Below, piece after piece: positions 6,193 to 29,522 of a DNA stretch of 64,000 bases. Position 1 is the stretch's first letter; every line of letters begins with the position of its first letter. This stretch comes from Escherichia coli. Lineage in GTDB: Bacteria; Pseudomonadota; Gammaproteobacteria; Enterobacterales; Enterobacteriaceae. The stretch lies in NCBI RefSeq assembly GCF_048403405.1, contig NZ_CP183129.1; one strand, 5' to 3'. A program made the position numbers and the translations under genes. The notes under the pieces were generated by a model that had not been told where the DNA came from, made no database searches, and worked only from the letters and a program-made list of their open reading frames with translations.

Positions 6193-6203
6193 TGGTTATT
6201 CCC

Positions 6204-7427: not shown

Positions 7428-7442
7428 CTCATTAAACCTGGG

Positions 7443-7775: not shown

Positions 7776-7798
7776 TTATTCTCTCCTGGAGTTAAAAA

Positions 7799-10439: not shown

Positions 10440-10785
10440 AGGGCAACCTCCGATAAGTGGGTGTTCAAGCCACCACCGGAGAGGCTAATCTCGCGGGTGG
10501 TGGAACCGGGCAGGGTTAGCCTTACCAGCCTTATCGGACACTGGCGCGTCTTGCGACGCCCCCGCCCGGCCCACCATTGAGATGTAACCGTGCGAACAAC
10601 ACAAAAAAAGACGCTGGCGCGTCATGTGTCGCCGATAAGATTTCTTCAGGAGGCTAATCCCGACGCCTGATTTTGCAGGCGCGGGAGAAAGATACTGCGA
10701 TTGGTCATGAGTGGCAAGGGCTACATCATGTTTACCGACATCTCACGCAAAAATACCCTGATTATTAATAGCGAAAATCAGTTTC
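10440..10785 (-). other. GC-rich, repeat-rich non-coding region downstream of the RT gene; candidate structured ncRNA
   Basis: No ORF of 60 aa or more; hairpin ccaccacc/ggtggtgg (10481-10503); inverted pair ccgataag/cttatcgg (10451-10458, 10530-10537); direct repeats gaggctaatc (10490-10499 and 10651-10660) and ctggcgcgtc (10541-10550 and 10611-10620). Confidence 0.3.
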
Positions 10786-13700
10786 TTATTTTGGCGGTAG
10801 CTTTTTGCGGTTCTTTGCCAACTGGAATCCTTCAGGTAACGGTTTGAATTTATCGCCGCCTTTAGGCCAGCGTTTTGCCCTGCTCTGAAATGCCCTTAAC
10901 GAGTCGATATCCAGCGTTGCAGCGACCACAAAGTCATTATCACCGCCCTTCACACGAGCAATATCACGCATAAAGGGTTCTTTTGCCGGGGAACGTACGC
11001 GACTATCGCCGTATTTTCGGTTATTCACTAAAATAGTATAGGCATGAATATCCAGCGCTGCTGATTCAATCAACGATGCAAACGTATCTAGATCTTTATT
11101 CCAGCTCAATACCATTAATGCATCGAGTGCGCCCTGAAAACGGATCCTCGCTTTACTATTCTGGAGTTCAGAGCAAATCATAACGCCAAAATTGACGCCG
11201 TGATGAATATATACCGGCTTACGTTGTTTAACATTAAGTGTCGAATCCCAAGACTTACCATAAGTTGAAAATAATGCCTCATCTTCACCTACGGCGGGTT
11301 CCAGCTTGGGTTGCCATATTTTGACACTCGCTGGATAGCCGAGTCTGTTATCTGAAAGGACAAGTACGGCCTCACTCTTCAGTTGATTATCGTCTAAGTG
11401 GCGGTATTCTGTTCCCGCAATTAGACTGATACCCGCCGAACTCAAACGATCAGCAATACTGTTAACCCAGCGTAACGGGATTGAAAGCTCAGGGAATAAA
11501 ACATAATCAGGTTTAGGAGATAGTTTCAATGTTGCATTAACCAGTTCAGAAATCCGCTGGTACCTTGAACGGGACAAGTTAGATTTATTGCAGGCCATTT
11601 TAGCCCAGTCGTCCTCCTCTGTTTTAATGCTGGTTAGCGCAACGACAACTTTATGTTTCCTGTCTGTGCCAATATGAATGAATTTCTTAGGCCGAGCTTT
11701 TTTTGTCGCTTCATCTGAGTCCTGCTCCGATGCTAGCAACGTCGGTTTGATCCATACTCCGCGTAATGCTTGAGTATATTTTGCCCAAATGGTGGACGGT
11801 CTCTCATCTGGTTTTTTGTCGGATGTGGAGGGTAATCCAACACATTCGGGGGCCAGTTCTGATATTTCAGCGGGTGTTAAAGGACGTGTAGGGAAAATGT
11901 AAGGTAGGTAACTTTCGTTTTTACGATTTCCTTTAGCCACTTTTTCCAGTCGGGTATTCTTGGTTGATTTCAAAAATAGCTTAATAACGTCAATATCAAT
12001 AAGCGATGAGTCGCTCATTAATTTCAGTATTTTAACTTCTTTTTTACTATCACGCTGATTAACAAGTTTTTCTGCCGACTGACTCTTTACGATCTGTTTA
12101 TAAGGTTCCTTTGCTAAATCAGCTCGAGCTACCAATGGCGCTTTTAAATAAAAATCTGCTGAATCAAAGCGAAGATCCAGTAAATCCTTTAGATTCGTCA
12201 GACTTTGTGAAATATGATTAAAAAATGTATCCGCAAGGCACTCTTCTTTCTTTGAACGTTTATCAAGAAATAATCTGTCAGGACTGTAATATCGTGTCGC
12301 TGCATCAACAAATAGCCAGCTTAATGTGCCTTTTATACAGCGCCAAAGATCATTTACTGCTCGAGTTTTGCAACCATTTATATTCACTTCCTTACCTGAA
12401 GTAATCACCGATGCCAACAGGTTGATGGATTCGTAAGCTTTAAGTACAATTTTTTCCGCGTGCTGCCATTCATTCATACTGATAGCAAAGCCAAGCAGCC
12501 TTGGCAGATAACTAAAATGTGCAAATAGATTATCAGCCCTAAGAATATGGTTGTAGGCAAACTGATAAAACTCTTCCCGCTGTTCTTTCCATTCACTTGG
12601 AGGCAGATCTCGTGCCAGTGTTTCAACGTAGCGTAATTGCAGTGACCAGCCCAAACGACGAATGGTTAATCCATCCGCACGGCGCAGAGTATCGGCATTT
12701 TCACCTACACTACCGGCAGCGGAAAGGACTTTAGCTGCGGTGGAGTGTTCCAGTTGATCCGGTGAAGGCATCAAGCGGTGTTCACTAGAAAGCTCGTAGA
12801 TCTCCTTTTCGATACTGTCGAGCAGGTCTATTCCAGCCCTCCCTTGAAGCACGAAAAGTTTTTGCTTATCGGATTGTAACTGGATGGTGGTCTTACCCTG
12901 GAAATGCTCGCCCTGCTGTATTTGCCATATTTGTTTTTGCTCGTTTTTCAAATAAACGCAATCATTGCCAAGCCTATCTTGCAGCAATAACATAAATTCG
13001 TGATTATTAGTAATTGTCCCTGTATCGCGTATTACAAGGAACATATCATCGACATAACGACCGTAGTGAATTGGTGATAGTTTTTCAATGACTAATTTAT
13101 CCCAATGGTGTAGCAATATATTTGAAATGATCCGACTGGCTGTTAATCCAATGACCAGACCACCATTAATAACAGGTGTTTTGTACGCTATTTTCTTTCC
13201 AAATGCCGCTGCGCCGTCAGACCAGTGCTTTAAGAATACTGCTAACTGTGCAGTAAACGCTTTTTCATCCTCAGTCAGTTTTATGTTTAGTGTGTTATAG
13301 AGATCATCAGAGGTTATAGCCAGTGGATCAATAAAATGATAGTAACTTTTTAAATCCAGTGAGGCGGCGATAATGTCACGATCTTTTTCCAACTCGTCAC
13401 GTATAGCTTTTAAGCCATCACCACGCCATTTTTGGTAGGGCTGGAAGTAGGGGCTAAAAGAACCCACGGCACTGATATGGAATGGATTATCCTGCTCATT
13501 GCTAAATAATTCATCATTACGAATACGCTTTAGCCGCGCGCCATAGCAACAGTTATCTAAGCTGGCATCAAATTTATGCCCGACCATGTTAATCCATAGT
13601 GCAGAGATAATGTGACTATCAACCGGGAAGTCACCAATAATACGAAACTCTGGTATCAGATCAAAATTATTAAATAAATGGTCGGCTGCTCGTTTAGGAT

Positions 13701-13995
13701 TAGAAAAGTGGACGTGTCCATTTTGGGATTCATGTTTTTTCTTTGTGGTTAATTTTTTCGGTAACAAACGAAATTTGCCAATCAACTTCTTATTGCTACT
13801 GAATCCATCTTCGCTCTGCAAAAGATCTAAGAGTTTTTGCAGGTTTTCAAGTAATTCCTGCTCATACTCGGCAAATTTGATAGCAACAGGAAATGTATTC
13901 TCAAAGAAGCTATCGGCTTTTGCTTTCCGGTAAGCGACCAGAAGGTCTTCAATCGTCAGATCATCCCAGCCAGTGAAAATTGCCTGATATGTCAT
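10786..13995 (-). CDS. Defence-associated reverse transcriptase fused to C-terminal nitrilase (CN-hydrolase) domain, DRT type 1-like (UG1-like)
   Basis: 1069-aa ORF with AAGGA RBS; RT motifs LDLKSYYHFID, GGLVIGLTASRIISNILL, YVDD (complement of 13045-13056); nitrilase triad context FPELS, VKIWQPK, GVMICSEL (Cys codon complement of 11173-11175). Confidence 0.75.
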   Translation of the reverse strand: MTYQAIFTGWDDLTIEDLLVAYRKAKADSFFENTFPVAIKFAEYEQELLENLQKLLDLLQSEDGFSSNKKLIGKFRLLPKKLTTKKKHESQNGHVHFSNPKRAADHLFNNFDLIPEFRIIGDFPVDSHIISALWINMVGHKFDASLDNCCYGARLKRIRNDELFSNEQDNPFHISAVGSFSPYFQPYQKWRGDGLKAIRDELEKDRDIIAASLDLKSYYHFIDPLAITSDDLYNTLNIKLTEDEKAFTAQLAVFLKHWSDGAAAFGKKIAYKTPVINGGLVIGLTASRIISNILLHHWDKLVIEKLSPIHYGRYVDDMFLVIRDTGTITNNHEFMLLLQDRLGNDCVYLKNEQKQIWQIQQGEHFQGKTTIQLQSDKQKLFVLQGRAGIDLLDSIEKEIYELSSEHRLMPSPDQLEHSTAAKVLSAAGSVGENADTLRRADGLTIRRLGWSLQLRYVETLARDLPPSEWKEQREEFYQFAYNHILRADNLFAHFSYLPRLLGFAISMNEWQHAEKIVLKAYESINLLASVITSGKEVNINGCKTRAVNDLWRCIKGTLSWLFVDAATRYYSPDRLFLDKRSKKEECLADTFFNHISQSLTNLKDLLDLRFDSADFYLKAPLVARADLAKEPYKQIVKSQSAEKLVNQRDSKKEVKILKLMSDSSLIDIDVIKLFLKSTKNTRLEKVAKGNRKNESYLPYIFPTRPLTPAEISELAPECVGLPSTSDKKPDERPSTIWAKYTQALRGVWIKPTLLASEQDSDEATKKARPKKFIHIGTDRKHKVVVALTSIKTEEDDWAKMACNKSNLSRSRYQRISELVNATLKLSPKPDYVLFPELSIPLRWVNSIADRLSSAGISLIAGTEYRHLDDNQLKSEAVLVLSDNRLGYPASVKIWQPKLEPAVGEDEALFSTYGKSWDSTLNVKQRKPVYIHHGVNFGVMICSELQNSKARIRFQGALDALMVLSWNKDLDTFASLIESAALDIHAYTILVNNRKYGDSRVRSPAKEPFMRDIARVKGGDNDFVVAATLDIDSLRAFQSRAKRWPKGGDKFKPLPEGFQLAKNRKKLPPK

Positions 13996-14289
13996 GCGTT
14001 ATCGTCCTTAGATTACAGTCTGTACAGAATTAGCCAGCCGTTTCATGCCCGAAGGGGGGCTCTTGACACCAGTAATCCATCAGTGAGGCTGGCAATAATT
14101 TTGATTTGTATCCATGTTACACGCTCCCCGCAACCAGTCCGAGCATATATTTGTCACATTTTTCCCGAAAGTGATTAAGTTTGAATTTTTTGTTTAATGT
14201 CGATTTTTAGTCGACAAAATGAGGAATAAGTAAACTATTTCTTGCTGTGGCGTATCCCTGAATCTACACTGGTTTAAATATTTGTACTA
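13996..14289. promoter_or_regulatory. Divergent promoter region between RT gene and abiEi, with palindrome gtcgatttttagtcgac (14200-14216)
   Basis: AT-rich 294-bp spacer between divergently oriented genes; inverted repeat is a candidate AbiEi operator. Confidence 0.35.
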
Positions 14290-15093
14290 ATGTCTATTCA
14301 GAGGCGACAGTTGCCAAACTATCTAAACTGGCTGATGCAGCACACGCTACCCGGCCAGGTGCTGCTCCAGTCATGGCTTACCCGCAACGGCATAGATCGT
14401 AAGCTCTCTTATCTCTATGTGAAGAATGGCTGGCTCAGGCGGATCGCTCACGGCGTATACTGCCGGACGGGCCGTGAGCCGGATTGGGTAGACGCGGTTT
14501 ACTGCCTTCAAACACAGTGGGAAAAGCCTGTTCGGGTGGCGGGGCTAACCAGCCTTGCGCTTCAGGGCCATGCGCACTATACCGAACCGGGTAAGCCGCA
14601 GGTCTGGCTCGCGCTTCCGGCTTACGTTAAGCTGCCGGGATGGTTTGCTGCCTTCGAACAATCTGCAACATTTATCACGCTGTATACATCGGGGCTTACC
14701 GTAGATGTAACGTCATTGACTACGGAACTGAAAATTGGCGACCGCCAGTTAGCAGGCAGTGCCCCGGAACTGGCCGCGTATGAGATCGCCTGCGGCGTTC
14801 CTTCGTTGATATCGTTCGAACATGCCGATGCTCTGTTTCAGGGGATGAATCTTCTCAGCCCACGCAAATTGCAGGCACTGCTTCGCGCCAGCCATTCGGT
14901 TAAAACCAACCGGGTGATGCTTTACCTTGCCCGGCGTAATGGACACCCTTATTTTCAGTATATTGATCAAAGCGGTATAGAAACAGGTACGGGAAAGCGG
15001 CAAATCATACCCGGCGGCTGGCTGGAGCCGGATTATCAAATTACTGTTCCACGCGCATTTAAACCGGAAGGAGTCGAAGATGGATCTGCGTGA
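14290..15093 (+). CDS. abiEi: AbiEi-family antitoxin/transcriptional regulator (type IV TA / abortive infection)
   Basis: 267-aa ORF, N-terminal motif ...GWLRRIAHGVY typical of AbiEi; overlaps downstream AbiEii gene by 14 nt. Confidence 0.7.
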   Translation: MSIQRRQLPNYLNWLMQHTLPGQVLLQSWLTRNGIDRKLSYLYVKNGWLRRIAHGVYCRTGREPDWVDAVYCLQTQWEKPVRVAGLTSLALQGHAHYTEPGKPQVWLALPAYVKLPGWFAAFEQSATFITLYTSGLTVDVTSLTTELKIGDRQLAGSAPELAAYEIACGVPSLISFEHADALFQGMNLLSPRKLQALLRASHSVKTNRVMLYLARRNGHPYFQYIDQSGIETGTGKRQIIPGGWLEPDYQITVPRAFKPEGVEDGSA

Positions 15094-16000
15094 TAGCTAT
15101 GCCCGGCAGGTCAAACTGTTGATGGCCGCTCTGCCGTATGTGGCGAAGGAGTCCTGTTTCGCGTTGAAAGGCGGCACCGCAATCAATTTGTTTGTGCAGG
15201 ATTTTCCCCGTCTGTCGGTGGATATTGATCTGGCGTACAAGAGCTTTGCGGATCGCGATACTGATTTGGCGGCTATCAACGACGCTTTGAAGAGGATTAC
15301 TGCATCGCTGAACGGCAGACCGGGGATCACCGCGATTCGGCAGGAAAATAAAGCGGATGAAAAGCGCATCATTGTGAATACCGCTGATGCAAAGATTAAG
15401 ATCGAGGTTAGCCCGGTCTGGCGCGGGCTGTTGTTGCCTCCGGCAGAAATGCCTGTGTGCGAACGTGTGGAAATGGAGTATGGCTTCACCACCATGAGTG
15501 TCGTCTCGCTGGCGGATCTTTATGGCGGTAAAATCTGCGCTGCGCTTGATCGTCAGCACCCGCGCGATCTGTTTGATGTGCTGAATATGCTGGAGAAACC
15601 GGGACTGATGCGGGAGATCTTTGACGGTTTTCTTTGTTATCTGGCAGGCCATCCCCGCCCCATCGCCGAGTTGCTGGCTCCAAACTGGGATACAGAGCGG
15701 ATCGCCACGTTGTACGCGCAGGAATTTTCGGGGATGACTCAGCAGGAAACGTCGCTGGAATCGCTGCTGTCAGTAACGACTTTGCTGCCGCAGGCGTTGA
15801 AGTCACATCTTACGGATCTGGATCGCGAGTTCTTGCTCAGTTTTAAGCAAAACAGCCCTGACTGGTCGCGGTATCGCTATCCTGAAATTCAGCATCTTCC
15901 GGCTATTCGCTGGAAGCAACGTAATCTGGCGGTGCTGAAAGATAAAAATCCGGCGAAGTATGTGGCGGCGGTGAATAAGCTAGAGAGGGTGCTGGCGTAA
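15080..16000 (+). CDS. abiEii: AbiEii/AbiGii-family nucleotidyltransferase toxin
   Basis: 306-aa ORF with SD GGAAGGA; motif ALKGGTAINLF...RLSVDIDLAY characteristic of AbiEii (DUF1814). Confidence 0.75.
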   Translation: MDLRDSYARQVKLLMAALPYVAKESCFALKGGTAINLFVQDFPRLSVDIDLAYKSFADRDTDLAAINDALKRITASLNGRPGITAIRQENKADEKRIIVNTADAKIKIEVSPVWRGLLLPPAEMPVCERVEMEYGFTTMSVVSLADLYGGKICAALDRQHPRDLFDVLNMLEKPGLMREIFDGFLCYLAGHPRPIAELLAPNWDTERIATLYAQEFSGMTQQETSLESLLSVTTLLPQALKSHLTDLDREFLLSFKQNSPDWSRYRYPEIQHLPAIRWKQRNLAVLKDKNPAKYVAAVNKLERVLA

Positions 16001-16364
16001 TCAATAGACCAGCATTAATCACGGATGATTACCAATCAGACAGATATGGTTAAATCATCGAATTCATAATTAATACTTTTTCTTACGCCGCTGAACAGCT
16101 TGAAAAGGATACATATTTTAAATATCAGTGAAGTGGACAGTTTATTGCCGTTATTAATAGAGATGGAGGAATAAATACGCGTATTCTACTATTGCAACAA
16201 AAACAACGATGATGATCAGTTTTCATAATGAAGTAACCTGACAGATATAAAAATGTTGATTGAGGCTCAATGCCCGGATGAAGGTTGTCGAGGGAGCCAG
16301 GTGGTTTTTTCTTTTGGGTGATCTCCATTGCTGGATAGTCCCCTCTTTCTCGCTCAAAGCAGAC

Positions 16365-16689
16365 TGTACTGCACCCATTTTGTTGGACGATGAAATGGAA
16401 TAGCCCCTAATATGTCAAAGCCAAAATACCCTTTTGAAAAGCGCCTTGAAGTCGTGAATCACTACTTCACAACTGATGATGGTTACAGGATCATCTCGGC
16501 ACGTTTTGGTGTCCCCCGAACCCAGGTCAGGACATGGGTTGCCCTCTATGAAAAACATGGAGAAAAAGGTTTAATTCCCAAACCTAAAGGCGTTAGTGCT
16601 GATCCAGAGTTGCGTATTAAGGTCGTGAAAGCTGTGATCGAGCAGCACATGTCCCTTAATCAGGCTGCTGCTCACTTTATGCTTGCTGG
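16365..16689 (+). mobile_element. IS150 (IS3 family) left-end fragment, truncated by IS26
   Basis: Begins TGTACTGCACCCATTTTGTTGGACG; encodes the N-terminal ~90 aa of InsJ/OrfA (MSKPKYPFEKRLEVVNHYFTTDDGYRIISARFGVP...) ending at the IS26 boundary. Confidence 0.8.
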
Positions 16690-17509
16690 GGCACTGTTGC
16701 AAATAGTCGGTGGTGATAAACTTATCATCCCCTTTTGCTGATGGAGCTGCACATGAACCCATTCAAAGGCCGGCATTTTCAGCGTGACATCATTCTGTGG
16801 GCCGTACGCTGGTACTGCAAATACGGCATCAGTTACCGTGAGCTGCAGGAGATGCTGGCTGAACGCGGAGTGAATGTCGATCACTCCACGATTTACCGCT
16901 GGGTTCAGCGTTATGCGCCTGAAATGGAAAAACGGCTGCGCTGGTACTGGCGTAACCCTTCCGATCTTTGCCCGTGGCACATGGATGAAACCTACGTGAA
17001 GGTCAATGGCCGCTGGGCGTATCTGTACCGGGCCGTCGACAGCCGGGGCCGCACTGTCGATTTTTATCTCTCCTCCCGTCGTAACAGCAAAGCTGCATAC
17101 CGGTTTCTGGGTAAAATCCTCAACAACGTGAAGAAGTGGCAGATCCCACGATTCATCAACACGGATAAAGCGCCCGCCTATGGTCGCGCGCTTGCTCTGC
17201 TCAAACGCGAAGGCCGGTGCCCGTCTGACGTTGAACACCGACAGATTAAGTACCGGAACAACGTGATTGAATGCGATCATGGCAAACTGAAACGGATAAT
17301 CAACGCCACGCTGGGATTTAAATCCATGAAGACGGCTTACGCCACCATCAAAGGTATTGAGGTGATGCGTGCACTACGCAAAGGCCAGGCCTCAGCATTT
17401 TATTATGGTGATCCCCTGGGCGAAATGCGCCTGGTAAGCAGAGTTTTTGAAATGTAAGGCCTTTGAATAAGACAAAAGGCTGCCTCATCGCTAACTTTGC
17501 AACAGTGCC
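16690..17509 (+). mobile_element. IS26, copy 2, 820 bp, same orientation as copy 1
   Basis: Terminal repeats GGCACTGTTGCAAA at 16690-16703 and complement at 17496-17509. Confidence 0.95.
16753..17457 (+). CDS. tnpA: IS26 transposase Tnp26
   Basis: 234-aa protein matching recalled Tnp26 (R29). Confidence 0.95.
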   Translation: MNPFKGRHFQRDIILWAVRWYCKYGISYRELQEMLAERGVNVDHSTIYRWVQRYAPEMEKRLRWYWRNPSDLCPWHMDETYVKVNGRWAYLYRAVDSRGRTVDFYLSSRRNSKAAYRFLGKILNNVKKWQIPRFINTDKAPAYGRALALLKREGRCPSDVEHRQIKYRNNVIECDHGKLKRIINATLGFKSMKTAYATIKGIEVMRALRKGQASAFYYGDPLGEMRLVSRVFEM

Positions 17510-19543
17510 AAACCGTTAGCGATTATGGTTCCGGCGTGGAATGAAACGGGCGTCATCGGCAATATGGCCGAGCTGGCGGCGACCACGCTCGACTATGAAA
17601 ACTATCATATCTTTGTTGGCACCTACCCCAACGACCCCGATACACAGCGTGATGTTGACGAAGTGTGCGCTCGCTTCCCGAACGTGCATAAGGTAGTCTG
17701 CGCGCGTCCTGGCCCCACCAGCAAAGCCGACTGCCTGAACAACGTGCTGGACGCCATCACCCAGTTTGAGCGTAGCGCCAATTTCGCTTTTGCTGGTTTT
17801 ATTCTGCATGACGCCGAAGACGTAATTTCACCGATGGAATTGCGTCTGTTCAACTATCTGGTCGAGCGTAAAGATCTGATTCAGATCCCGGTGTATCCGT
17901 TCGAACGCGAATGGACGCACTTCACCAGCATGACTTACATTGATGAGTTTTCAGAACTGCATGGCAAAGATGTTCCGGTGCGTGAAGCCCTCGCCGGACA
18001 AGTGCCCAGCGCAGGCGTCGGTACCTGTTTCAGCCGCCGCGCCGTGACCGCACTGTTAGCTGACGGTGACGGTATTGCTTTCGACGTGCAGAGTCTTACT
18101 GAAGATTACGACATTGGTTTCCGCCTGAAAGAAAAAGGTATGACGGAAATTTTTGTCCGTTTTCCGGTGGTGGACGAAGCCAAAGAACGCGAGCAGCGTA
18201 AATTTTTACAGCACGCGCGGACGTCAAACATGATCTGCATGCGCGAATATTTCCCTGATACCTTTTCGACTGCGGTTCGACAAAAATCTCGCTGGATCAT
18301 CGGCATTGTTTTCCAGGGCTTTAAAACCCACAAATGGACCTCCAGCCTGACGCTGAACTACTTTCTCTGGCGCGACCGCAAAGGGGCAATCAGTAACTTT
18401 GTCAGCTTTCTCGCGATGCTGGTGATGATCCAGCTTCTGCTGTTACTGGCGTATGAAAGTTTGTGGCCCGATGCCTGGCATTTCCTTTCTATTTTCAGCG
18501 GCAGCGCATGGTTAATGACCCTGCTGTGGCTAAACTTTGGTTTGATGGTTAACCGCATCGTGCAGCGGGTGATTTTTGTCACTGGCTACTACGGTCTGAC
18601 GCAGGGGCTGCTATCTGTCCTGCGTCTTTTCTGGGGCAACCTGATTAACTTCATGGCCAACTGGCGCGCGTTAAAACAGGTACTTCAACACGGCGATCCA
18701 CGTCGTGTCGCGTGGGATAAAACAACGCATGACTTCCCCAGCGTGACTGGCGATACCCGCTCGTTGCGCCCGTTAGGCCAAATTCTGCTGGAAAATCAGG
18801 TCATCACTGAAGAACAACTCGATACAGCACTGCGTAATCGCGTCGAAGGTCTACGCCTGGGCGGTTCAATGCTGATGCAGGGGCTGATTAGCGCCGAACA
18901 GCTGGCACAGGCGCTGGCAGAGCAAAACGGCGTGGCGTGGGAATCCATCGACGCCTGGCAGATCCCGTCCTCGCTGATTGCCGAAATGCCGGCCTCCGTG
19001 GCGCTGCATTATGCAGTGCTGCCGCTGCGTCTGGAAAATGATGAGTTAATTGTCGGCAGTGAAGATGGTATTGACCCGGTTTCGCTGGCGGCCCTGACGC
19101 GTAAAGTCGGACGCAAAGTGCGTTACGTCATTGTTCTGCGGGGACAAATTGTCACGGGGTTACGTCACTGGTATGCACGCCGACGCGGTCACGATCCGCG
19201 GGCAATGTTGTACAATGCGATTCAGCATCAGTGGCTCACGGAACAGCAGGCCGGTGAAATCTGGCGGCAATATGTGCCGCATCAGTTCCTGTTCGCCGAA
19301 ATACTGACCACGCTCGGTCATATTAATCGTTCAGCAATTAACGTGTTGTTATTGCGCCATGAACGCAGTTCTCTGCCGCTCGGCAAGTTTTTGGTCACCG
19401 AAGGCGTTATCAGCCAGGAAACGTTGGATCGCGTCCTGACAATTCAACGCGAATTACAAGTTTCGATGCAATCACTATTACTCAAAGCAGGTTTAAACAC
19501 AGAACAGGTTGCGCAACTGGAGTCCGAAAATGAAGGAGAATAA
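17510..19543 (+). pseudogene. nfrB: nfrB (c-di-GMP-controlled glycosyltransferase, phage N4 adsorption protein B), 5'-truncated by IS26
   Basis: Native reading frame begins directly at the IS26 right end (KPLAIMVPAWNETGVIGN...); ~70 N-terminal codons of the recalled 745-aa NfrB are missing; longest ORF 17525-19543. Confidence 0.85.
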
Positions 19544-22502
19544 CCTTAATCGCGTCATCGGATGGTCTGGTTTACTGCTGACGTCTTTATTGAGTACCAG
19601 CGCACTCGCAGACAATATCGGCACCAGCGCAGAAGAGCTGGGGCTGAGCGATTATCGCCATTTTGTTATTTATCCCCGTCTCGATAAGGCGCTGAAGGCA
19701 CAGAAAAATAACGACGAAGCAACCGCCATCCGCGAATTTGAATATATACACCAACAGGTGCCGGATAATATTCCGCTAACTTTATACCTTGCGGAAGCCT
19801 ATCGCCATTTTGGTCATGATGACCGGGCGCGGCTGTTGCTTGAGGATCAACTGAAACGTCACCCAGGAGATGCCCGACTTGAGCGCAGTCTGGCGGCTAT
19901 TCCAGTTGAAGTGAAAAGCGTTACGACTGTTGAAGAACTGCTTGCCCAGCAAAAAGCGTGCGACGCTGCGCCGACCCTGCGTTGTCGCAGTGAAGTCGGG
20001 CAGAATGCCCTGCGGCTGGCACAATTACCTGTCGCCAGAGCGCAACTGAACGATGCGACGTTTACTGCATCGCCGGAAGGAAAAACGCTGCGAACCGATC
20101 TGCTGCAACGCGCAATCTACCTGAAACAATGGTCCCAGGCAGATACGCTATACAATGAAACACGCCAGCAGAACACATTAAGCGCGGCAGAACGCCGCCA
20201 GTGGTTTGATGTGCTTCTTGCCGGGCATCTGGACGATCGGATCCTGGCGCTGCAATCACAGGGGATCTTCACCGATCCTCAGTCATATATTACTTACGCG
20301 ACCGCGCTGGCTTATCGTGGCGAAAAAGCACGCCTCCAGCATTATCTCATTGAAAATACGCCGCTATTTACCACGGACGCACAAGAGAAAAGTTGGCTCT
20401 ATCTGTTATCTAAATACAGCGCCAACCCCGTTCAGGCGTTGGCGAATTATACGGTACAGTTTGCCGACAACCACCAGTATGTTGTTGGCGCGACGCTACC
20501 GGTGCTGTTAAAAGAAGGTCAGTACGACGCAGCGCAAAAACTGCTCGCCACCCTCCCCGCCAATGAAATGCTTGAGGAGCGTTATACCGTTAGCGTGGCG
20601 ACCCATAACAAGGCTGAAGCTCTGCGTCTGGCACGATTGCTGTATCAGCAAGAACCGGCAAATCTTACCCGCCTGGATCAACTGACCTGGCAACTGATGC
20701 AGAACGAGCAGTCACGCGAAGCTGCCGATTTATTGCTGCAACGCTATCCTTTCCAGGGCGATGCGCGTGTCAGCCAGACTTTAATGGCGCGACTGGCGTC
20801 TCTGCTGGAAAGTCATCCTTACCTGGCAACTCCGGCGAAGGTGGCGATTTTATCGAAACCCTTACCGCTGGCGGAGCAACGTCAGTGGCAAAGTCAGTTG
20901 CCGGGTATTGCAGATAATTGCCCGGCAATAGTTCGCTTGCTGGGCGATATGTCGCCTTCCTACGATGCCGCCGCCTGGAACCGTCTGGCAAAGTGTTATC
21001 GGGACACGCTACCCGGTGTGGCGTTGTATGCATGGCTTCAGGCCGAACAACGACAACCGAACGCCTGGCAACATCGTGCGGTAGCCTATCAGGCGTATCA
21101 GGTTGAGGACTACGCCACCGCACTGGCGGCCTGGCAGAAAATCAGTCTTCACGACATGAGCAATGAGGATCTGCTTGCTGCTGCCAATACCGCCCAGGCG
21201 GCAGGAAATGGTGCGGCTCGCGATCGCTGGCTTCAGCAGGCAGAACAACGTGGGCTGGGAAACAATGCCCTCTACTGGTGGCTACATGCGCAACGTTACA
21301 TTCCTGGTCAGCCGGAACTCGCACTGAACGATCTCACGCGCTCAATCAATATTGCGCCTTCTGCCAACGCTTACGTTGCGCGGGCGACAATTTATCGCCA
21401 ACGTCATAATGTCCCGGCGGCGGTGAGTGATTTGCGCGCCGCACTGGAACTGGAACCGAATAATAGCAACACCCAAGCAGCGCTCGGTTACGCCTTGTGG
21501 GATAGCGGTGATATCGCACAGTCGCGGGAAATGCTCGAACAGGCGCATAAAGGGCTACCGGACGATCCGGCACTTATCCGACAACTGGCCTACGTGAACC
21601 AGCGTCTGGATGACATGCCTGCGACGCAGCACTACGCCCGGCTGGTGATTGATGACATTGATAATCAGGCGCTGATAACCCCACTGACCCCAGAGCAAAA
21701 TCAGCAACGCTTCAATTTCCGCCGTCTGCATGAGGAGGTCGGTCGCCGCTGGACGTTCAGTTTCGATTCTTCCATCGGCTTGCGTTCCGGCGCGATGAGT
21801 ACCGCTAACAATAATGTCGGCGGCGCAGCGCCAGGGAAAAGCTATCGTAGCTACGGGCAACTGGAAGCCGAGTACCGCATCGGACGCAATATGCTGCTGG
21901 AAGGCGACCTGCTCTCAGTTTATAGCCGCGTCTTTGCCGATACCGGAGAAAACGGGGTGATGATGCCGGTGAAAAATCCGATGTCCGGCACCGGTCTGCG
22001 CTGGAAGCCGCTGCGCGATCAGATCGTTTTCCTCGCCGTCGAACAGCAGTTGCCGCTGAACGGGCAAAATGGCGCATCCGATACCATGCTGCGCGCCAGC
22101 GCCTCATTCTTTAATGGCGGCAAATACAGCGACGAATGGCACCCGAACGGTTCAGGCTGGTTTGCCCAAAACCTGTACCTCGATGCGGCGCAATATGTCC
22201 GCCAGGATATTCAGGCGTGGACGGCAGATTATCGCGTAAGCTGGCATCAGAAGGTGGCGAACGGACAGACTATTGAGCCTTACGCTCACGTTCAGGACAA
22301 CGGTTATCGTGATAAAGGCACTCAGGGCGCGCAGCTTGGCGGTGTCGGGGTCCGCTGGAATATCTGGACCGGCGAGACGCACTACGACGCCTGGCCGCAC
22401 AAAGTCAGTCTCGGCGTCGAATATCAACATACCTTTAAGGCGATTAATCAACGTAACGGAGAGCGCAACAACGCGTTTCTCACCATTGGAGTGCACTGGT
22501 AA
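19530..22502 (+). CDS. nfrA: Outer membrane protein NfrA (phage N4 adsorption protein A)
   Basis: ATG at 19530 gives 990 aa with signal peptide MKENNLNRVIGWSGLLLTSLLSTSALA; TPR-rich. Confidence 0.9.
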   Translation: MKENNLNRVIGWSGLLLTSLLSTSALADNIGTSAEELGLSDYRHFVIYPRLDKALKAQKNNDEATAIREFEYIHQQVPDNIPLTLYLAEAYRHFGHDDRARLLLEDQLKRHPGDARLERSLAAIPVEVKSVTTVEELLAQQKACDAAPTLRCRSEVGQNALRLAQLPVARAQLNDATFTASPEGKTLRTDLLQRAIYLKQWSQADTLYNETRQQNTLSAAERRQWFDVLLAGHLDDRILALQSQGIFTDPQSYITYATALAYRGEKARLQHYLIENTPLFTTDAQEKSWLYLLSKYSANPVQALANYTVQFADNHQYVVGATLPVLLKEGQYDAAQKLLATLPANEMLEERYTVSVATHNKAEALRLARLLYQQEPANLTRLDQLTWQLMQNEQSREAADLLLQRYPFQGDARVSQTLMARLASLLESHPYLATPAKVAILSKPLPLAEQRQWQSQLPGIADNCPAIVRLLGDMSPSYDAAAWNRLAKCYRDTLPGVALYAWLQAEQRQPNAWQHRAVAYQAYQVEDYATALAAWQKISLHDMSNEDLLAAANTAQAAGNGAARDRWLQQAEQRGLGNNALYWWLHAQRYIPGQPELALNDLTRSINIAPSANAYVARATIYRQRHNVPAAVSDLRAALELEPNNSNTQAALGYALWDSGDIAQSREMLEQAHKGLPDDPALIRQLAYVNQRLDDMPATQHYARLVIDDIDNQALITPLTPEQNQQRFNFRRLHEEVGRRWTFSFDSSIGLRSGAMSTANNNVGGAAPGKSYRSYGQLEAEYRIGRNMLLEGDLLSVYSRVFADTGENGVMMPVKNPMSGTGLRWKPLRDQIVFLAVEQQLPLNGQNGASDTMLRASASFFNGGKYSDEWHPNGSGWFAQNLYLDAAQYVRQDIQAWTADYRVSWHQKVANGQTIEPYAHVQDNGYRDKGTQGAQLGGVGVRWNIWTGETHYDAWPHKVSLGVEYQHTFKAINQRNGERNNAFLTIGVHW

Positions 22503-23393
22503 ATGCGTAAGTTCATTTTCGTATTGCTGACACTGCTTTTGGTCAGCCCTTTTTCCTTTGCGATGAAAGGTATTATCTGGCAACCACAAAACCGTGATAG
22601 TCAGGTTACCGATACCCAGTGGCAGGGGCTGATGAGTCAGTTACGTTTGCAAGGCTTCGATACCCTGGTTTTGCAATGGACCCGTTACGGCGATGCATTC
22701 ACCCAGCCAGAACAGCGCGCGTTATTGTTTAAGCGTGCAGCAGCTGCGCAACAGGCTGGCCTGAAGCTGATTGTCGGGCTGAATGCCGATCCGGAATTTT
22801 TTATGCACCAGAAACAGTCATCCGCGGCGCTGGAAAGCTATCTTAACCGCCTACTGGCTGCCGATCTCCAGCAAGCCAGATTATGGAGCGCCGTACCTGG
22901 CGTAACGCCGGATGGCTGGTACATCAGCGCGGAAATTGACGACCTGAACTGGCGCAGCGAAGCCGCCCGTCAGCCTTTGCTGACATGGTTAAACAACGCG
23001 CAGCGGTTGATTAGCGATGTTTCAGCAAAACCGGTTTATATCAGTAGTTTTTTCGCCGGAAACATGTCGCCCGATGGCTATCGCCAACTGCTGGAACAAG
23101 TTAAAACAACCGGCGTTAATGTCTGGGTACAGGATGGCAGCGGCGTGAATAAACTTACCGCTGAACAGCGTGAACGTTATCTACAGGCCAGCGCCGATTG
23201 CCAAAGCTCCGCCCCAGCAAGCGGCATTGTTTATGAACTGTTTGTCGCCGGCAAAGGCAAAACCTTTACAGCGAAACCGAAACCGGATGCAGAGATCGCC
23301 TCGCTGTTAGCGAAACGTTCCTCTTGCGGTAAAGACACGCTCTATTTCTCTCTGCGCTATTTGCCCGTTGCGCACGGCATTCTCGAGTATTAA
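22503..23393 (+). CDS. ybcH: DUF4434 family protein YbcH
   Basis: 296-aa ORF with signal peptide; synteny. Confidence 0.85.
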   Translation: MRKFIFVLLTLLLVSPFSFAMKGIIWQPQNRDSQVTDTQWQGLMSQLRLQGFDTLVLQWTRYGDAFTQPEQRALLFKRAAAAQQAGLKLIVGLNADPEFFMHQKQSSAALESYLNRLLAADLQQARLWSAVPGVTPDGWYISAEIDDLNWRSEAARQPLLTWLNNAQRLISDVSAKPVYISSFFAGNMSPDGYRQLLEQVKTTGVNVWVQDGSGVNKLTAEQRERYLQASADCQSSAPASGIVYELFVAGKGKTFTAKPKPDAEIASLLAKRSSCGKDTLYFSLRYLPVAHGILEY

Positions 23394-23575
23394 ATCTCCT
23401 CCAGGTAAGTCGGGTACGACCTGGCTTACCTCTTTCGCTCTCGTCAGAATTCCATCAAGATTAATTGCTAAAAAGCGTGCTAAAGAAAGAAGATCGTTAT
23501 CGGCGAACGGGCCGATCACTCATGCAGGAAGCATAGATCCTTTGAGCGGAGTTTCTGATATCTGAGGAGTGCGAA

Positions 23576-24337
23576 ATGCAATTGAGCAGCAGTGAACCTT
23601 GCGTGGTGATCCTGACCGAAAAAGAGGTAGAGGTAAGCGTCAATAACCATGCTACGTTTACCCTTCCGAAAAACTACCTGGCCGCCTTCGCGTGCAACAA
23701 TAACGTCATTGAACTCTCAACGTTAAATCACGTATTAATCACCCACATCAACCGTAACATCATCAACGATTATCTGTTGTTTTTAAATAAGAACTTAACC
23801 TGTGTAAAGCCCTGGTCGCGGCTGGCTACCCCGGTTATCGCTTGTCATAGCCGTACACCGGAAGTGTTCCGGCTAGCCGCCAACCACAGCAAGCAGCAAC
23901 CCAGCAAACCCTGCGAAGCGGAGTTGACGCGCGCATTGCTTTTTACCGTATTGTCTAACTTTCTTGAGCAATCGCGGTTTATTGCCCTACTGATGTATAT
24001 CTTACGCAGCAGCGTCCGCGACAGCGTCTGCCGCATTATTCAAAGCGATATTCAGCATTACTGGAATCTGCGAATTGTCGCCAGTTCGCTATGTTTAAGC
24101 CCCAGCCTGCTCAAAAAGAAATTAAAAAACGAAAATACCAGCTATAGCCAGATTGTCACAGAGTGTCGTATGCGTTACGCCGTACAGATGTTATTGATGG
24201 ATAACAAAAATATCACTCAGGTAGCGCAATTATGTGGCTATAGCAGCACGTCGTACTTTATCTCTGTTTTTAAGGCGTTTTACGGCCTGACACCGTTGAA
24301 TTATCTCGCCAAACAGCGACAAAAAGTGATGTGGTGA
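23576..24337 (+). CDS. envY: AraC-family porin thermoregulator EnvY
   Basis: 253-aa ORF with C-terminal AraC HTH; synteny. Confidence 0.85.
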   Translation: MQLSSSEPCVVILTEKEVEVSVNNHATFTLPKNYLAAFACNNNVIELSTLNHVLITHINRNIINDYLLFLNKNLTCVKPWSRLATPVIACHSRTPEVFRLAANHSKQQPSKPCEAELTRALLFTVLSNFLEQSRFIALLMYILRSSVRDSVCRIIQSDIQHYWNLRIVASSLCLSPSLLKKKLKNENTSYSQIVTECRMRYAVQMLLMDNKNITQVAQLCGYSSTSYFISVFKAFYGLTPLNYLAKQRQKVMW

Positions 24338-24382
24338 AGGGCAAAGCGGAAACGGATAGGACGGGGATAAATGAAGAAGAAA

Positions 24383-24459
24383 TGGCGCGCCCTGCAGGAT
24401 TCGAACCTGCGGCCCACGACTTAGAAGGTCGTTGCTCTATCCAACTGAGCTAAGGGCGC
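24383..24459 (-). tRNA. argU: tRNA-Arg (anticodon UCU)
   Basis: Reverse complement reads GCGCCCTTAGCTCAGTTGGATAGAGCAACGACCTTCTAAGTCGTGGGCCGCAGGTTCGAATCCTGCAGGGCGCGCCA, 77 nt with CCA end. Confidence 0.95.
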
Positions 24460-24701
24460 GTTGATACCGCAATGCGGTGTAATCGCGTGAATTATACGGT
24501 CAACCCTTGCTGAGTCAATGGCTTTTGATCTGGTTGCTGAACAAGTGAACGACCGCGTCTGATTTTCTGATTTATTTCGCTATAGCGGCAAACAAACGTA
24601 CACCGCTGCGCGTCTGAATCAAGAAAACCCGTATTTTCATGTATCAAAGTACAATTTCCCGCCCTAACGGAAAATTGTCCGATCCTATGAGACTGGTAAC
24701 T

Positions 24702-25334
24702 ATGAAACCAACGTCGGTGATCATTATGGATACTCATCCTATCATCAGAATGTCTATTGAAGTTCTGTTGCAAAAAAACAGTGAATTGCAAATTGTCCTG
24801 AAAACGGATGATTATCGCATAACCATCGATTATCTCCGAACCCGTCCTGTTGATTTAATCATTATGGATATAGACTTGCCCGGTACAGACGGTTTTACCT
24901 TCCTGAAAAGGATCAAACAAATCCAGAGTACAGTGAAAGTATTATTTTTATCATCGAAATCAGAATGCTTTTATGCTGGCAGAGCGATACAAGCTGGTGC
25001 TAACGGCTTTGTCAGTAAATGCAATGATCAGAATGATATTTTTCATGCCGTTCAGATGATCCTCTCCGGATACACTTTTTTTCCCAGCGAAACGCTCAAC
25101 TATATAAAAAGCAATAAATGTAGCACGAATAGTTCAACGATCACTGTGCTATCTAATCGTGAAGTGACCATATTACGTTATCTGGTTAGCGGATTATCCA
25201 ATAAAGAAATTGCCGATAAGTTATTACTTAGCAATAAAACAGTTAGTGCGCATAAATCTAATATTTATGGCAAGCTAGGTTTGCATTCAATTGTAGAGCT
25301 TATCGACTATGCCAAATTATATGAATTAATATAA
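24702..25334 (+). CDS. fimZ: LuxR-family response regulator FimZ
   Basis: 210-aa protein from MKPTSVIIMDTHPIIRMSIEVLL; receiver plus LuxR HTH. Confidence 0.9.
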   Translation: MKPTSVIIMDTHPIIRMSIEVLLQKNSELQIVLKTDDYRITIDYLRTRPVDLIIMDIDLPGTDGFTFLKRIKQIQSTVKVLFLSSKSECFYAGRAIQAGANGFVSKCNDQNDIFHAVQMILSGYTFFPSETLNYIKSNKCSTNSSTITVLSNREVTILRYLVSGLSNKEIADKLLLSNKTVSAHKSNIYGKLGLHSIVELIDYAKLYELI

Positions 25335-25336
25335 TA

Positions 25337-25852
25337 TTAATTATAATTGATCATAAATATCGCATCCGCTTTCGCCACACCTGGCTGAACACCACTGGCT
25401 AACGCTCGATAATTGGCAAAAAAGTTTAGTGTGACATTGCCATTTGCATCTACTTCCTCAGTCGGGCTCGCCTCCCCCAGTGCGAGCCGGGAGCGATCGC
25501 TATTACGTAATTCGATGGCGACGGTTTGTGCCATTGCGGGATCATCCAGAGCCAGCAGGTTGGCATCAGATGCCGGCGTTCCCGTAAATAAAATTGCAAC
25601 TGAACCCGGAGGACATCCCTCCAGCCGCAGGCTAAAAGGGACGAGTGCCGTGGTATCGCCAGCGCTCAGTAATTGTGTCGTAGGCCATCTGCCTAAATCT
25701 ACTGTCTTATCCTTATCCGCTGTGTTTACGGTACAGGAGAAATCAACAACGTTACCGTGCAAATTGATATTAATCGTTCCTAAAGGGTCAACTGCCCATC
25801 CACTGGAACTCCACAGTAGCCCGCAGAAACAGCTAAAGAGTACTCTTCTCAT
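25337..25852 (-). CDS. sfmF: Fimbrial-like protein SfmF
   Basis: 171-aa protein from MRRVLFSCFCGLLWSSSGWA within the longer ORF 25337-26047. Confidence 0.85.
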   Translation of the reverse strand: MRRVLFSCFCGLLWSSSGWAVDPLGTININLHGNVVDFSCTVNTADKDKTVDLGRWPTTQLLSAGDTTALVPFSLRLEGCPPGSVAILFTGTPASDANLLALDDPAMAQTVAIELRNSDRSRLALGEASPTEEVDANGNVTLNFFANYRALASGVQPGVAKADAIFMINYN

Positions 25853-25862
25853 TCTCCGTACC

Positions 25863-26870: not shown

Positions 26871-26882
26871 TGATAATTTCCT

Positions 26883-29492: not shown

Positions 29493-29522
29493 AATTAGCT
29501 CTGATATTGTCAGATGATTCGG

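What the first reader, a model, noticed from the sequence alone, without database searches (positions are those of the whole stretch)
17496..19543. nfrB lacks about 70 N-terminal codons: predicted loss of the phage N4 receptor pathway alongside gain of defence genes
The IS26 right end is joined directly to nfrB sequence encoding ...KPLAIMVPAWNETGVIGN..., which I recall lies about 60-70 residues into NfrB (native N-terminus MDWLLDVFATWLYGLKV... with the first membrane segment). nfrB mutants are classically resistant to phage N4. The downstream nfrA appears intact but depends on NfrB function. The same mobile-element event therefore both brought in defence systems and probably inactivated a phage-adsorption pathway. 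tnp26 reads toward nfrB, so a truncated product from the ATG at 17525 could still be made.
Basis: partly seen in the sequence, partly recalled or inferred. Interest (0 to 1): 0.55.

Follow-up and report, generated by a model that had tools for sequence, protein, structure and literature searches.

The report
IS26-truncated nfrB phage-receptor gene
An IS26 insertion sequence has cut off the promoter and the first 68 codons of nfrB, the E. coli gene that makes the sugar receptor for phage N4; this very probably inactivates the receptor pathway, but it is an ordinary type of lesion seen before in other strains.

Summary
IS26 ends at 17509, and nfrB resumes at 17510, the first base of codon 69. 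The native promoter and 68 codons are missing.

The lost residues form a long N-terminal membrane helix and a DDxxxD motif. Both are conserved across 56 homologues (D37 invariant). The first in-frame ATG (17525, Met74) has no Shine-Dalgarno sequence and lies inside the first beta-strand of the glycosyltransferase fold. A null allele with polar loss of nfrA-ybcH expression is therefore the best reading. It predicts resistance to N4 and other phages that use the same glycan receptor.

The interpretation needs three corrections:
- **Size of the lesion.** About 19.6 kb is replaced relative to a near-identical sister strain: the cusC start, cusRS, a Vgr/RHS island, ISAs1 and the nfrB 5' end.
- **The "gained" defence genes.** The UG5 reverse transcriptase-nitrilase and AbiE genes are a 100% identical copy of an island that sister strains carry beside thrW. 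This is relocation or duplication, not acquisition.
- **Number of events.** There are no target-site duplications and the two IS26 copies differ by one base, so several events are implied, not one.

Natural nfrB lesions are already documented. Novelty and interest are low.

The parts
7799..9170 (-). cusC remnant lacking its first 11 nt (start codon and codons 2-4) and its promoter. cusF, cusB and cusA (7775..3049) follow intact.
   Evidence: the match to K-12 and to strain 4621 stops 11 nt inside cusC, directly at the IS26 left inverted repeat.
9171..9990 (+). IS26 copy 1, 820 bp. It differs from copy 2 at position 149 (A instead of G; Tnp26 R29H).
9991..16364 (+). Passenger segment, 100% identical to the thrW-adjacent island of sister strains. 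It carries a hypothetical gene that has lost its last 22 nt, an ash-family gene, the DRT gene, abiEi/abiEii and a ykgR remnant.
10786..13995 (-). Defence-associated reverse transcriptase-nitrilase (UG5 class), 1069 aa.
   Evidence: PADLOC PDLC03780 RT_UG5-nitrilase, E=0, 1034 bits, full length.
14290..16000 (+). abiEi (14290/14311..15093) and abiEii (15080..16000), a type IV toxin-antitoxin / abortive-infection pair.
   Evidence: AbiEi E=2.5e-79 and AbiEii E=4.4e-116. RefSeq annotation of the identical genes.
16364..16689 (+). Left-end fragment of IS150 (326 bp, start of insJ), cut by IS26 copy 2.
16690..17509 (+). IS26 copy 2 (canonical sequence). tnp26 at 16753..17457 reads toward nfrB. The right inverted repeat at 17496..17509 contains a -35-like TTGCAA at 17497..17502.
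   Evidence: (NF033587, E=3.6e-83).
17510..19543 (+). nfrB remnant, codons 69-745 plus stop, 100% identical to the sister-strain allele. The first in-frame start is ATG 17525 (Met74; 672-aa ORF). The promoter and codons 1-68 are absent.
   Evidence: NF008411 matched from profile position 68. Pfam GT2 domain begins at residue 70.
19530..22502 (+). nfrA, intact (990 aa). It overlaps the nfrB end by 14 nt, has its own Shine-Dalgarno sequence, and now lacks the operon promoter.
   Evidence: (NF007302, positions 1-990 of 990), and the operon structure in PMC8669469.
22503..23393 (+). ybcH, intact, the third gene of the nfrBA-ybcH operon.
   Evidence: (NF007404, positions 1-296 of 296).

Best explanation
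**Structure (shown).** In a clone otherwise almost identical to E. coli strain 4621, a 19,579-bp chromosomal interval has been replaced. The lost interval runs from nt 12 of cusC to nt 204 of nfrB and contains cusR, cusS, a vgrG/RHS island and ISAs1. In its place is an 8,339-bp structure bounded by two directly oriented IS26 copies (a pseudo-compound transposon). Its passenger is a copy of the lineage's own thrW-adjacent island plus an IS150 end.

**History (inferred).**
- A translocatable unit (one IS26 plus the passenger) formed at the thrW locus.
- It was incorporated at or next to an IS26 in the cus-nfr interval.
- IS26 adjacent deletions removed the flanking DNA up to cusC on one side and up to nfrB codon 69 on the other.

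**Consequence (predicted).**
- nfrB has lost its FliA-dependent promoter, its start codon, its N-terminal membrane helix and a conserved acidic motif. It is a null allele.
- nfrA and ybcH have lost their operon promoter.
- The cell should no longer make the NfrB-dependent ManNAc-derived surface glycan (NGR).
- It should therefore be resistant to N4 and, fully or partly, to other NGR-dependent phages.
- The cus copper/silver efflux system should also be silent.
For: **Junction and extent**
- The junction is defined to the base.
- Window 1..9170 is 100% identical and 17510..64000 is 100%/99.994% identical to strain 4621. The 19,579 bp between these blocks in strain 4621 occur nowhere else in the window.

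**IS26 copies**
- The two copies are directly oriented, have no target-site duplications and differ by 1 nt.

**Origin of the passenger**
- It is 100% identical to the thrW island in six sister genomes.

**Deleted N-terminus**
- Hydropathy places the strongest N-terminal membrane segment at residues 7-30.
- In 56 homologues of 29-60% identity, a hydrophobic 19-mer is present in 54/56, D32 and D33 in 51/56, and D37 in 56/56.
- All six related NCBIfam models align the remnant only from profile position 54-76.
- The AlphaFold2 model (pLDDT 92.1, pTM 0.90) shows one helix over residues 2-54 and beta-strand 1 at residues 71-76.
- The closest solved folds are the membrane-integrated synthases BcsA, hyaluronan synthase and CesA.

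**Expression signals**
- Shine-Dalgarno pairing is -0.2 kcal/mol for ATG 17525, against -3.9 for the native start and a random mean of -2.08.
- No consensus promoter was found.

**Literature**
- nfrBA-ybcH is one operon expressed from upstream of nfrB, and nfrB or nfrA knock-outs are not lysed by N4 (PMC8669469).
- Delta-nfrB also protects against Vequintavirinae, phi92-like phages and Enquatrovirus (PMC8669472).
- IS26 adjacent deletions, translocatable units and loss of target-site duplications are described in PMC8722046 and PMC7986276.
Against: - No phenotype was measured.
- The catalytic GT2 motifs, the C-terminal membrane helices and the MshEN domain are intact and undecayed.
- tnp26 read-through is plausible, since no terminator was predicted, and IS26 ends are known to form hybrid promoters (PMC7986276). 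Some transcript, and some NfrA, could therefore be made.
- The role of the NfrB N-terminal helix has never been tested experimentally.
- The order and number of IS26 events is inferred, not observed.
- The rest of the genome is unseen, so a second intact nfr locus cannot be formally excluded. However, the median and near-universal number of nfrB places per E. coli genome is 1.
Confidence: 0.85

Rival explanations
1. A truncated NfrB (Met74 or Met87 to Glu745) is expressed from tnp26 read-through or from an IS26 hybrid promoter, and keeps enough activity for NGR synthesis. The strain would then remain sensitive to N4.
For: - The ORF 17525..19543 is intact and 100% identical to the functional allele.
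- The GT2 domain from residue 70, the membrane helices at about 348-462 and the MshEN domain are all retained.
- No terminator was predicted between tnp26 and nfrB.
- The IS26 inverted repeat carries TTGCAA, with GATTAT 18 nt downstream (sequence).
- IS26 hybrid promoters are well known (PMC7986276).
Against: - The invariant D37, the near-invariant D32/D33 and the N-terminal membrane helix present in 54/56 homologues are all lost.
- Met74 lies inside beta-strand 1.
- There is no Shine-Dalgarno sequence at ATG 17525 (-0.2 kcal/mol), and only random-level pairing at Met87.
- The candidate hybrid promoter matches only 8 of 12 consensus positions. It would start transcription downstream of ATG 17525.
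- The promoter scan found nothing.
Confidence: 0.06
2. The placement of the 6.7-kb passenger between the two IS26 copies is an assembly artefact of the IS26 repeat. The true chromosome would have a single IS26 joining cusC' to 'nfrB, with the island still at thrW.
For: - IS26 (820 bp) is a classic source of repeat-mediated mis-joins.
- The passenger is identical to a locus present elsewhere in sister genomes.
- None of the four junctions is seen in 5,426 complete genomes.
Against: - The IS26-passenger and IS150-IS26 junctions exist in the sequence, and sister genomes have no IS26 at thrW. So IS26 has in any case acted on that island in this strain.
- The two IS26 copies differ by one base, which argues against a collapsed repeat.
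- This rival does not affect the nfrB truncation, because the IS26-nfrB junction is a short-range feature.
Confidence: 0.08
3. The lesion is a by-product of IS26 activity with no phage-related selection. It would be neutral, or selected for another reason such as loss of the cost of the Nfr glycan or its drag on motility, loss of cus, or loss of the RHS island.
For: - Sellner et al. attribute natural nfrB and dgcJ lesions to fitness costs (PMC8669472).
- The Nfr system impedes motility when c-di-GMP is high (PMC8669469).
- The deletion removes many unrelated genes.
- About 1% of complete genomes that keep the downstream part of nfrB lack most of its first 204 nt, and about 7% lack nfrB altogether.
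Against: Nothing in the sequence discriminates between these options. This rival concerns why the allele persists, not what it is, and it is compatible with the best explanation.
Confidence: 0.5

Closest known systems
Natural nfrB/nfrAB-null alleles of E. coli (B strains including BL21, and other strains with insertion sequences, deletions or stop codons in nfrB)
   Same: These are loss-of-function lesions in the same gene, with N4 resistance as the documented or expected outcome (PMC8669472 section 9; PMC7553319).
   Different: This allele is made by IS26 at codon 69. It is coupled to a 19.6-kb deletion and to an IS26-bounded passenger. It was not found in 5,426 complete genomes or as an exact protein on record.
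PAAR/RHS::nfrB, VgrG::nfrB and ISAs1::nfrB N-terminal replacement alleles (for example P0029, P0006, P0005)
   Same: The first 23-54 codons of nfrB, and with them the N-terminal membrane helix, are replaced through rearrangements of the variable cusS-nfrB island. P0029 is seen on 527 contigs.
   Different: Those alleles are in-frame fusions to upstream genes of the neighbouring island. Here there is no fusion (in-frame stop at 17492), and the breakpoint lies further in, at codon 69.
IS26 pseudo-compound transposons, translocatable units and IS26 adjacent deletions in resistance regions
   Same: Two directly oriented IS26 copies flank a passenger, target-site duplications are absent, and neighbouring DNA is deleted (PMC8722046, PMC7986276).
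   Different: The passenger is a chromosomal defence island (DRT UG5-nitrilase plus AbiE) rather than antibiotic-resistance genes, and the target is a chromosomal phage-receptor operon.
Membrane-integrated processive GT2 synthases (BcsA, hyaluronan synthase, plant CesA)
   Same: These are the best structural matches to the NfrB model (4p00_A E=9e-13). The QxxRW, TED and DxD motifs are present, and as in BcsA the enzyme is activated by c-di-GMP.
   Different: NfrB senses c-di-GMP through a C-terminal MshEN domain rather than a PilZ domain, and sequence identity is only 9-15%. No experiment has tested the role of the NfrB N-terminal helix.

Membership tests
NfrB (c-di-GMP-activated GT2 exopolysaccharide synthase, NCBIfam NF008411) | Equivalog HMM score above the curated cut-off | tested here: met
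   1208 bits against a cut-off of 1170 for the 672-aa remnant. The DNA is 100% identical to the annotated nfrB of strain 4621.
NfrB (c-di-GMP-activated GT2 exopolysaccharide synthase, NCBIfam NF008411) | Complete protein including the N-terminal membrane helix and the DDxxxD motif (profile positions 1-67) | tested here: not met
   the match starts at profile position 68; codons 1-68 are absent; the helix is present in 54/56 homologues and D37 in 56/56.
NfrB (c-di-GMP-activated GT2 exopolysaccharide synthase, NCBIfam NF008411) | GT2 active-site signatures (DxD with D169, TED with D267, QxxRW with W330) and the MshEN c-di-GMP motif (L490, G491, G519) | tested here: met
   The translation contains HDAEDV, LTEDYD, QKSRW and RPLGQILL...GLRLGGS. 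Pfam PF13641, PF13632 and PF05157 match. Residue roles are taken from PMC8669469 and PMC8669472.
NfrB (c-di-GMP-activated GT2 exopolysaccharide synthase, NCBIfam NF008411) | Expression as the first gene of nfrBA-ybcH from the FliA-dependent promoter upstream of nfrB | tested here: not met
   The upstream region is absent from the window. Operon and promoter are described in PMC8669469.
NfrB (c-di-GMP-activated GT2 exopolysaccharide synthase, NCBIfam NF008411) | Requirement for N4 adsorption and infection (phenotype) | not testable with these tools
   This needs a plaque or adsorption assay on the strain.
IS26 (IS6/IS26 family) | 820-bp element with 14-bp perfect terminal inverted repeats and a 234-aa Tnp26 | tested here: met
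   NF033587, E=3.6e-83.
IS26 (IS6/IS26 family) | 8-bp target-site duplication from simple copy-in insertion | tested here: not met
   the flanks are GAAGTTTA / AATTTTAC and CTTGCTGG / AAACCGTT, with no match in direct or inverted form. This is expected after an adjacent deletion or targeted conservative incorporation.
IS26 pseudo-compound transposon / translocatable unit | Two directly oriented IS26 copies bounding a passenger whose origin is identifiable | tested here: met
IS26 pseudo-compound transposon / translocatable unit | Demonstrated movement as a circular unit carrying a single IS26 | not testable with these tools
   This would need outward PCR or long-read detection of the circle, or the sequence of the thrW locus of the same genome.
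Defence systems DRT (UG5 RT-nitrilase) and AbiE | Full-length match to the PADLOC models, with the AbiEi/AbiEii genes adjacent | tested here: met
   Anti-phage activity of these particular genes was not tested.

The most novel reading that the evidence does not exclude
IS26 has captured a chromosomal defence island (UG5 reverse transcriptase-nitrilase plus AbiE) as a translocatable unit and re-inserted it into a phage-receptor operon. A single mobile structure would then couple portable intracellular defence with receptor loss. It would also show IS26 mobilising defence cargo in the way it mobilises resistance genes, potentially onward to plasmids.
Probability: 0.15. Interest if true: 0.45.

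Novelty: new member of a known kind. Interest (0 to 1): 0.2.

Why it matters
**Predicted phenotypes**
- If the prediction holds, this clinical-lineage clone is resistant to N4. It should also be fully or partly resistant to the other phages that depend on the NfrB glycan: Vequintavirinae, phi92-like phages and Enquatrovirus. This is relevant when choosing therapeutic phages.
- The same lesion should abolish Cus-mediated copper/silver efflux and remove a Vgr/RHS effector island.

**General points**
- IS26 is usually discussed for antibiotic resistance. Here it remodels chromosomal phage-interaction loci within a clone that otherwise differs by only 2 SNPs over about 56 kb.
- None of this changes current understanding. 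Receptor-gene loss through insertion sequences is routine, and nfrB lesions are already reported.

Tried and rejected
- **Plasmid origin of the passenger.** The only plasmid-labelled record with at least 80% coverage is MS 69-1 "plasmid unnamed3", which itself consists of chromosomal thrW-region DNA plus phage genes. An external plasmid origin was rejected.
- **Plasmid origin of the IS150'-IS26 joint.** Plasmids pNORD8_2 and Ecol_244 have IS26 inside IS150, but at a different IS150 position (insJ is cut after about 486 nt there, whereas only 326 bp of IS150 remain here). They are independent events.
- **Same junctions elsewhere.** No record among 5,426 complete E. coli genomes covers any of the IS26 junctions. 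Exact-protein look-ups of the Met74 and Met87 products found nothing.
- **Displaced copy of the missing DNA.** No part of the missing 19.6 kb, including the nfrB 5' end, is anywhere else in the window.
- **Target-site duplications.** None was found in direct or reverse-complement form. A simple insertion or a single inversion is therefore rejected.
- **Promoter and terminator scan of 16600..17800.** It found nothing. The TTGCAA / 18 nt / GATTAT candidate was identified by eye and is below the scan threshold.
- **Fusion with Tnp26.** Rejected: tnp26 is in a different frame, and an in-frame TAA lies at 17492.
- **Solved NfrB structure.** None exists. Sequence searching matches only MshEN-domain relatives.
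- **75-aa in-frame MshEN deletion allele (P0074 and related).** I first thought it might be widespread, but 5,051 complete genomes retain that segment, so it is rare there.
Full report
**1. Checking the observation**

The region was read directly. An 820-bp IS26 lies at 16690..17509. It has perfect 14-bp terminal inverted repeats (GGCACTGTTGCAAA; 4 matches in the window against 0.03 expected). Its 234-aa transposase gene at 16753..17457 is on the + strand (NCBIfam IS6-family transposase, E=3.6e-83).

Immediately after the right inverted repeat, the sequence AAACCGTTAGCGATTATGGTT... encodes KPLAIMVPAWNETGVIGN. A megablast search against 5,426 complete E. coli genomes shows that homology to nfrB begins at exactly window position 17510 in every top hit.

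In strain 4621 the annotated nfrB is 2,238 nt, and the match begins 204 nt into it. The same holds in K-12 MG1655. A three-way alignment shows a sharp, unambiguous breakpoint at the first base of codon 69.

The native protein is 745 aa, starts with GTG, and begins MDWLLDVFATWLYGLKV.

The first in-frame start is ATG 17525 (Met74), giving a 672-aa ORF. An in-frame TAA at 17492..17494 inside IS26, together with the different frame of tnp26, excludes any fusion protein.

**2. What is really there: a much larger replacement**

A second IS26 in the same orientation lies at 9171..9990. To its left is cusC lacking its first 11 nt, followed by intact cusF, cusB and cusA.

BLAST of the whole window against fetched loci gave these results against strain 4621 (NZ_CP103479.1):

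| Window | Identity to strain 4621 |
|---|---|
| 1..9170 | 100% |
| 17510..31600 | 100% |
| 31039..64000 | 99.994% |

The window strain is therefore essentially the same clone as 4621, MS 69-1, TUM1226, TUM14771 and GN02461.

In strain 4621 the two blocks are separated by 19,579 bp (3704892..3724470). That interval holds the cusC start, cusR, cusS, a vgrG gene, a DcrB-related gene, several RHS/PAAR fragments, an ISAs1 transposase, the nfr promoter region and nfrB codons 1-68. In K-12, which lacks the Vgr/RHS island, the equivalent interval is 2,636 bp. None of the interval occurs anywhere else in the window.

It is replaced by 8,339 bp: IS26, a 6,374-bp passenger, a 326-bp IS150 left end, and IS26.

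**3. The "gained" defence genes**

The passenger does encode defence candidates:
- a 1,069-aa reverse transcriptase-nitrilase that matches PADLOC RT_UG5-nitrilase over its full length (E=0, 1034 bits);
- an AbiEi/AbiEii pair (E=2.5e-79 and 4.4e-116).

However, the passenger is 100% identical to a segment that the same sister strains carry next to tRNA-Thr (thrW). There it sits between proA and a LysR-family gene, about 320 kb from nfrB and in the opposite orientation. About 258 complete genomes carry at least 80% of it.

No plasmid source exists. The only "plasmid" hit is a 64-kb MS 69-1 record that is itself made of chromosomal thrW-region DNA plus phage genes.

The lineage therefore already possessed these genes. 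The window shows their relocation or duplication by IS26, not an acquisition.

**4. How many events?**

None of the four IS26 flanks share an 8-bp duplication, in direct or inverted form. The two IS26 copies differ by one base (position 149; R29H in copy 1).

Directly oriented IS26 copies without target-site duplications are the signature of three things: pseudo-compound transposons, incorporation of a translocatable unit next to a resident IS26, and IS26 adjacent deletions (PMC8722046, PMC7986276).

The most economical history has three parts:
- a translocatable unit (one IS26 plus the passenger) forms at thrW, after IS26 hit an IS150 that had inserted beside the island;
- the unit is incorporated at or beside an IS26 in the cus-nfr interval;
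- one or two adjacent deletions extend to cusC nt 11 and nfrB nt 204.

The order is unresolvable from the window. nfrB could have been cut by the arrival of the unit, or by an earlier or later deletion. "The same event" is therefore not supported, though "the same element family acting at one locus" is. None of the junctions occurs in 5,426 complete genomes. IS150::IS26 joints on plasmids are at a different IS150 position.

**5. Consequence for NfrB**

*What was removed.* Pfam places the GT2 catalytic domain from residue 70 (PF13641, model position 2 of 230). The MshEN domain is at residues 542-628. The breakpoint thus falls exactly between an N-terminal module and the catalytic domain. Hydropathy gives the strongest N-terminal membrane segment at about residues 7-30.

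*Conservation of the removed part.* A search of 1.84 billion representative proteins returned homologues of 32-62% identity whose alignments mostly begin within query residues 2-24. I aligned 56 family members of 29-60% identity:
- 54 of 56 have a hydrophobic 19-mer (Kyte-Doolittle score of at least 1.6) before the position of residue 31;
- D32 and D33 are present in 51 of 56;
- D37 is one of only 13 invariant columns in the whole protein (motif sGlDDlfiDxxYW, followed by a basic stretch).

All six related NCBIfam models align the remnant only from profile position 54-76.

*Structure model.* An AlphaFold2 model built on this alignment (pLDDT 92.1, pTM 0.90) shows a single long helix over residues 2-54, a short helix at 60-63, and beta-strand 1 at 71-76. 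A product starting at Met74 would begin in the middle of that strand. The nearest solved folds are the membrane-integrated processive synthases BcsA (4p00_A, E=9e-13), hyaluronan synthase and plant CesA. No NfrB structure is solved.

The lost segment is a conserved functional part of the enzyme. Its exact role has not been tested experimentally.

**6. Expression**

According to PMC8669469, nfrB, nfrA and ybcH form one operon. Its promoter activity, measured upstream of nfrB, depends on the flagellar sigma factor FliA. That promoter is gone.

A consensus scan of 16600..17800 found no sigma-70-like promoter and no terminator, so tnp26 read-through is possible. The IS26 inverted repeat supplies a -35-like TTGCAA (17497..17502), and a weak -10 (GATTAT, 17521..17526) lies 18 nt downstream. 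This pair matches only 8 of 12 consensus positions. It would also start transcription downstream of ATG 17525.

Pairing with the anti-Shine-Dalgarno sequence:

| Start site | Pairing energy (kcal/mol) |
|---|---|
| ATG 17525 (Met74) | -0.2 |
| Met87 | -2.7 |
| Native nfrB GTG | -3.9 |
| nfrA start | -5.9 |
| Random 20-mers from the window (mean ± sd) | -2.08 ± 2.28 |

A truncated NfrB is therefore unlikely to be made in meaningful amounts. If it were made, it should be mis-folded or mis-localised. NfrA might be made from read-through transcripts, but nfrB and nfrA are each required for N4 lysis (PMC8669469).

**7. Predicted phenotype and what is known**

- nfrB and nfrA knock-outs of K-12 are not lysed by N4, and NfrB GT-domain and MshEN-domain point mutants also fail (PMC8669469, PMC8669472).
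- Transposon screens recover nfrA and nfrB as the top N4-resistance hits (PMC7553319).
- Delta-nfrB also gives full or partial resistance to Vequintavirinae, phi92-like phages and Enquatrovirus (PMC8669472, section 9).
- The same paper shows that the encapsulated, O-antigen-bearing uropathogen UTI89 is infected by N4, and that this depends on wecB and is blocked by pdeL expression. The prediction is therefore relevant to clinical strains.

The predicted phenotype is loss of the NGR glycan and resistance to these phages. No phenotype was measured here.

**8. Novelty**

[quoted passage not shown] BL21 lacks nfrAB (PMC7553319).

My own searches show a rich set of natural lesions:
- PAAR/RHS::nfrB fusions replacing the first 53-54 residues (P0029, seen on 527 contigs);
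- VgrG::nfrB and ISAs1::nfrB fusions;
- in-frame deletions inside the GT, membrane and MshEN regions.

Among the 5,426 complete genomes:
- 5,044 retain the 404 nt just downstream of the breakpoint;
- 4,993 retain at least 80% of the first 204 nt;
- so about 1% have a 5'-end lesion, and about 7% have no nfrB at all.

The present allele is new in detail: it is absent from those genomes and not on record as an exact protein. But it belongs to a known class. The mildly unusual feature is that the IS26 passenger is a chromosomal defence island rather than resistance genes.

**9. Verdict**

- Observation: confirmed.
- Interpretation: partly supported. The truncation and the predicted receptor loss stand. 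The "gain", the "same event" and the "product could still be made" claims do not.
- Novelty: a new member of a known kind.
- Interest: low (0.2).

Noticed in passing
window 3049..9170 (cusA, cusB, cusF, cusC'): The same replacement removes cusR, cusS, the cusR-cusC control region and the first 11 nt of cusC. The intact cusFBA genes are left without a promoter, regulator or first-gene start. Loss of Cus-mediated Cu(I)/Ag(I) efflux is predicted.
   Followed up: partly
absent between window 9170 and 17510; strain 4621 NZ_CP103479.1 3707917..3724069 (L006 27918.. and L001 1..11599): Sister strains carry a roughly 17-kb vgrG / DcrB-like / RHS / PAAR / ISAs1 island between cusS and nfrB, and K-12 lacks it. 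It is entirely deleted here. This variable island seems to be the source of recurrent nfrB 5'-end lesions such as the PAAR/RHS::nfrB, VgrG::nfrB and ISAs1::nfrB fusion ORFs (P0029, P0006, P0005).
   Followed up: partly
window 9171..9990 versus 16690..17509: The two IS26 copies differ at one base (position 149, A versus G), giving Tnp26 R29H in copy 1. This argues against their being twins from one recent copy-in event.
   Followed up: partly
window 9972..10439 (-): The hypothetical 155/156-aa gene at the edge of the thrW-island passenger has lost its last 22 nt to IS26 copy 1 and now ends inside the IS26 inverted repeat.
   Followed up: no
L004 (NZ_CP146678.1, E. coli MS 69-1 'plasmid unnamed3', 64,057 bp circular): This record is labelled a plasmid, but it consists of a tailed-phage structural module plus chromosomal thrW-region genes (the same DRT/AbiE island, pao, ecp, ykg) that are also present in the MS 69-1 chromosome. 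It may be an excised or transducing circle, or an assembly artefact.
   Followed up: no
proteins P0074, P0071, P0076 (670 aa): This nfrB allele has an in-frame 75-aa deletion (residues 471-545) between the short repeats RRVAW and NGVAW. It removes the MshEN c-di-GMP-binding residues L490, G491 and G519. It is seen on hundreds of contigs in the large collection but is rare in complete genomes (5,051 keep the segment).
   Followed up: partly
H119, NZ_AP045173.1 (E. coli JNEC-KY177) 3632968..3635112: This is an independent lesion at the same locus. nfrB homology starts at nt 95 of the gene and is annotated next to cusA, which suggests another cus-nfrB deletion in a different strain.
   Followed up: no
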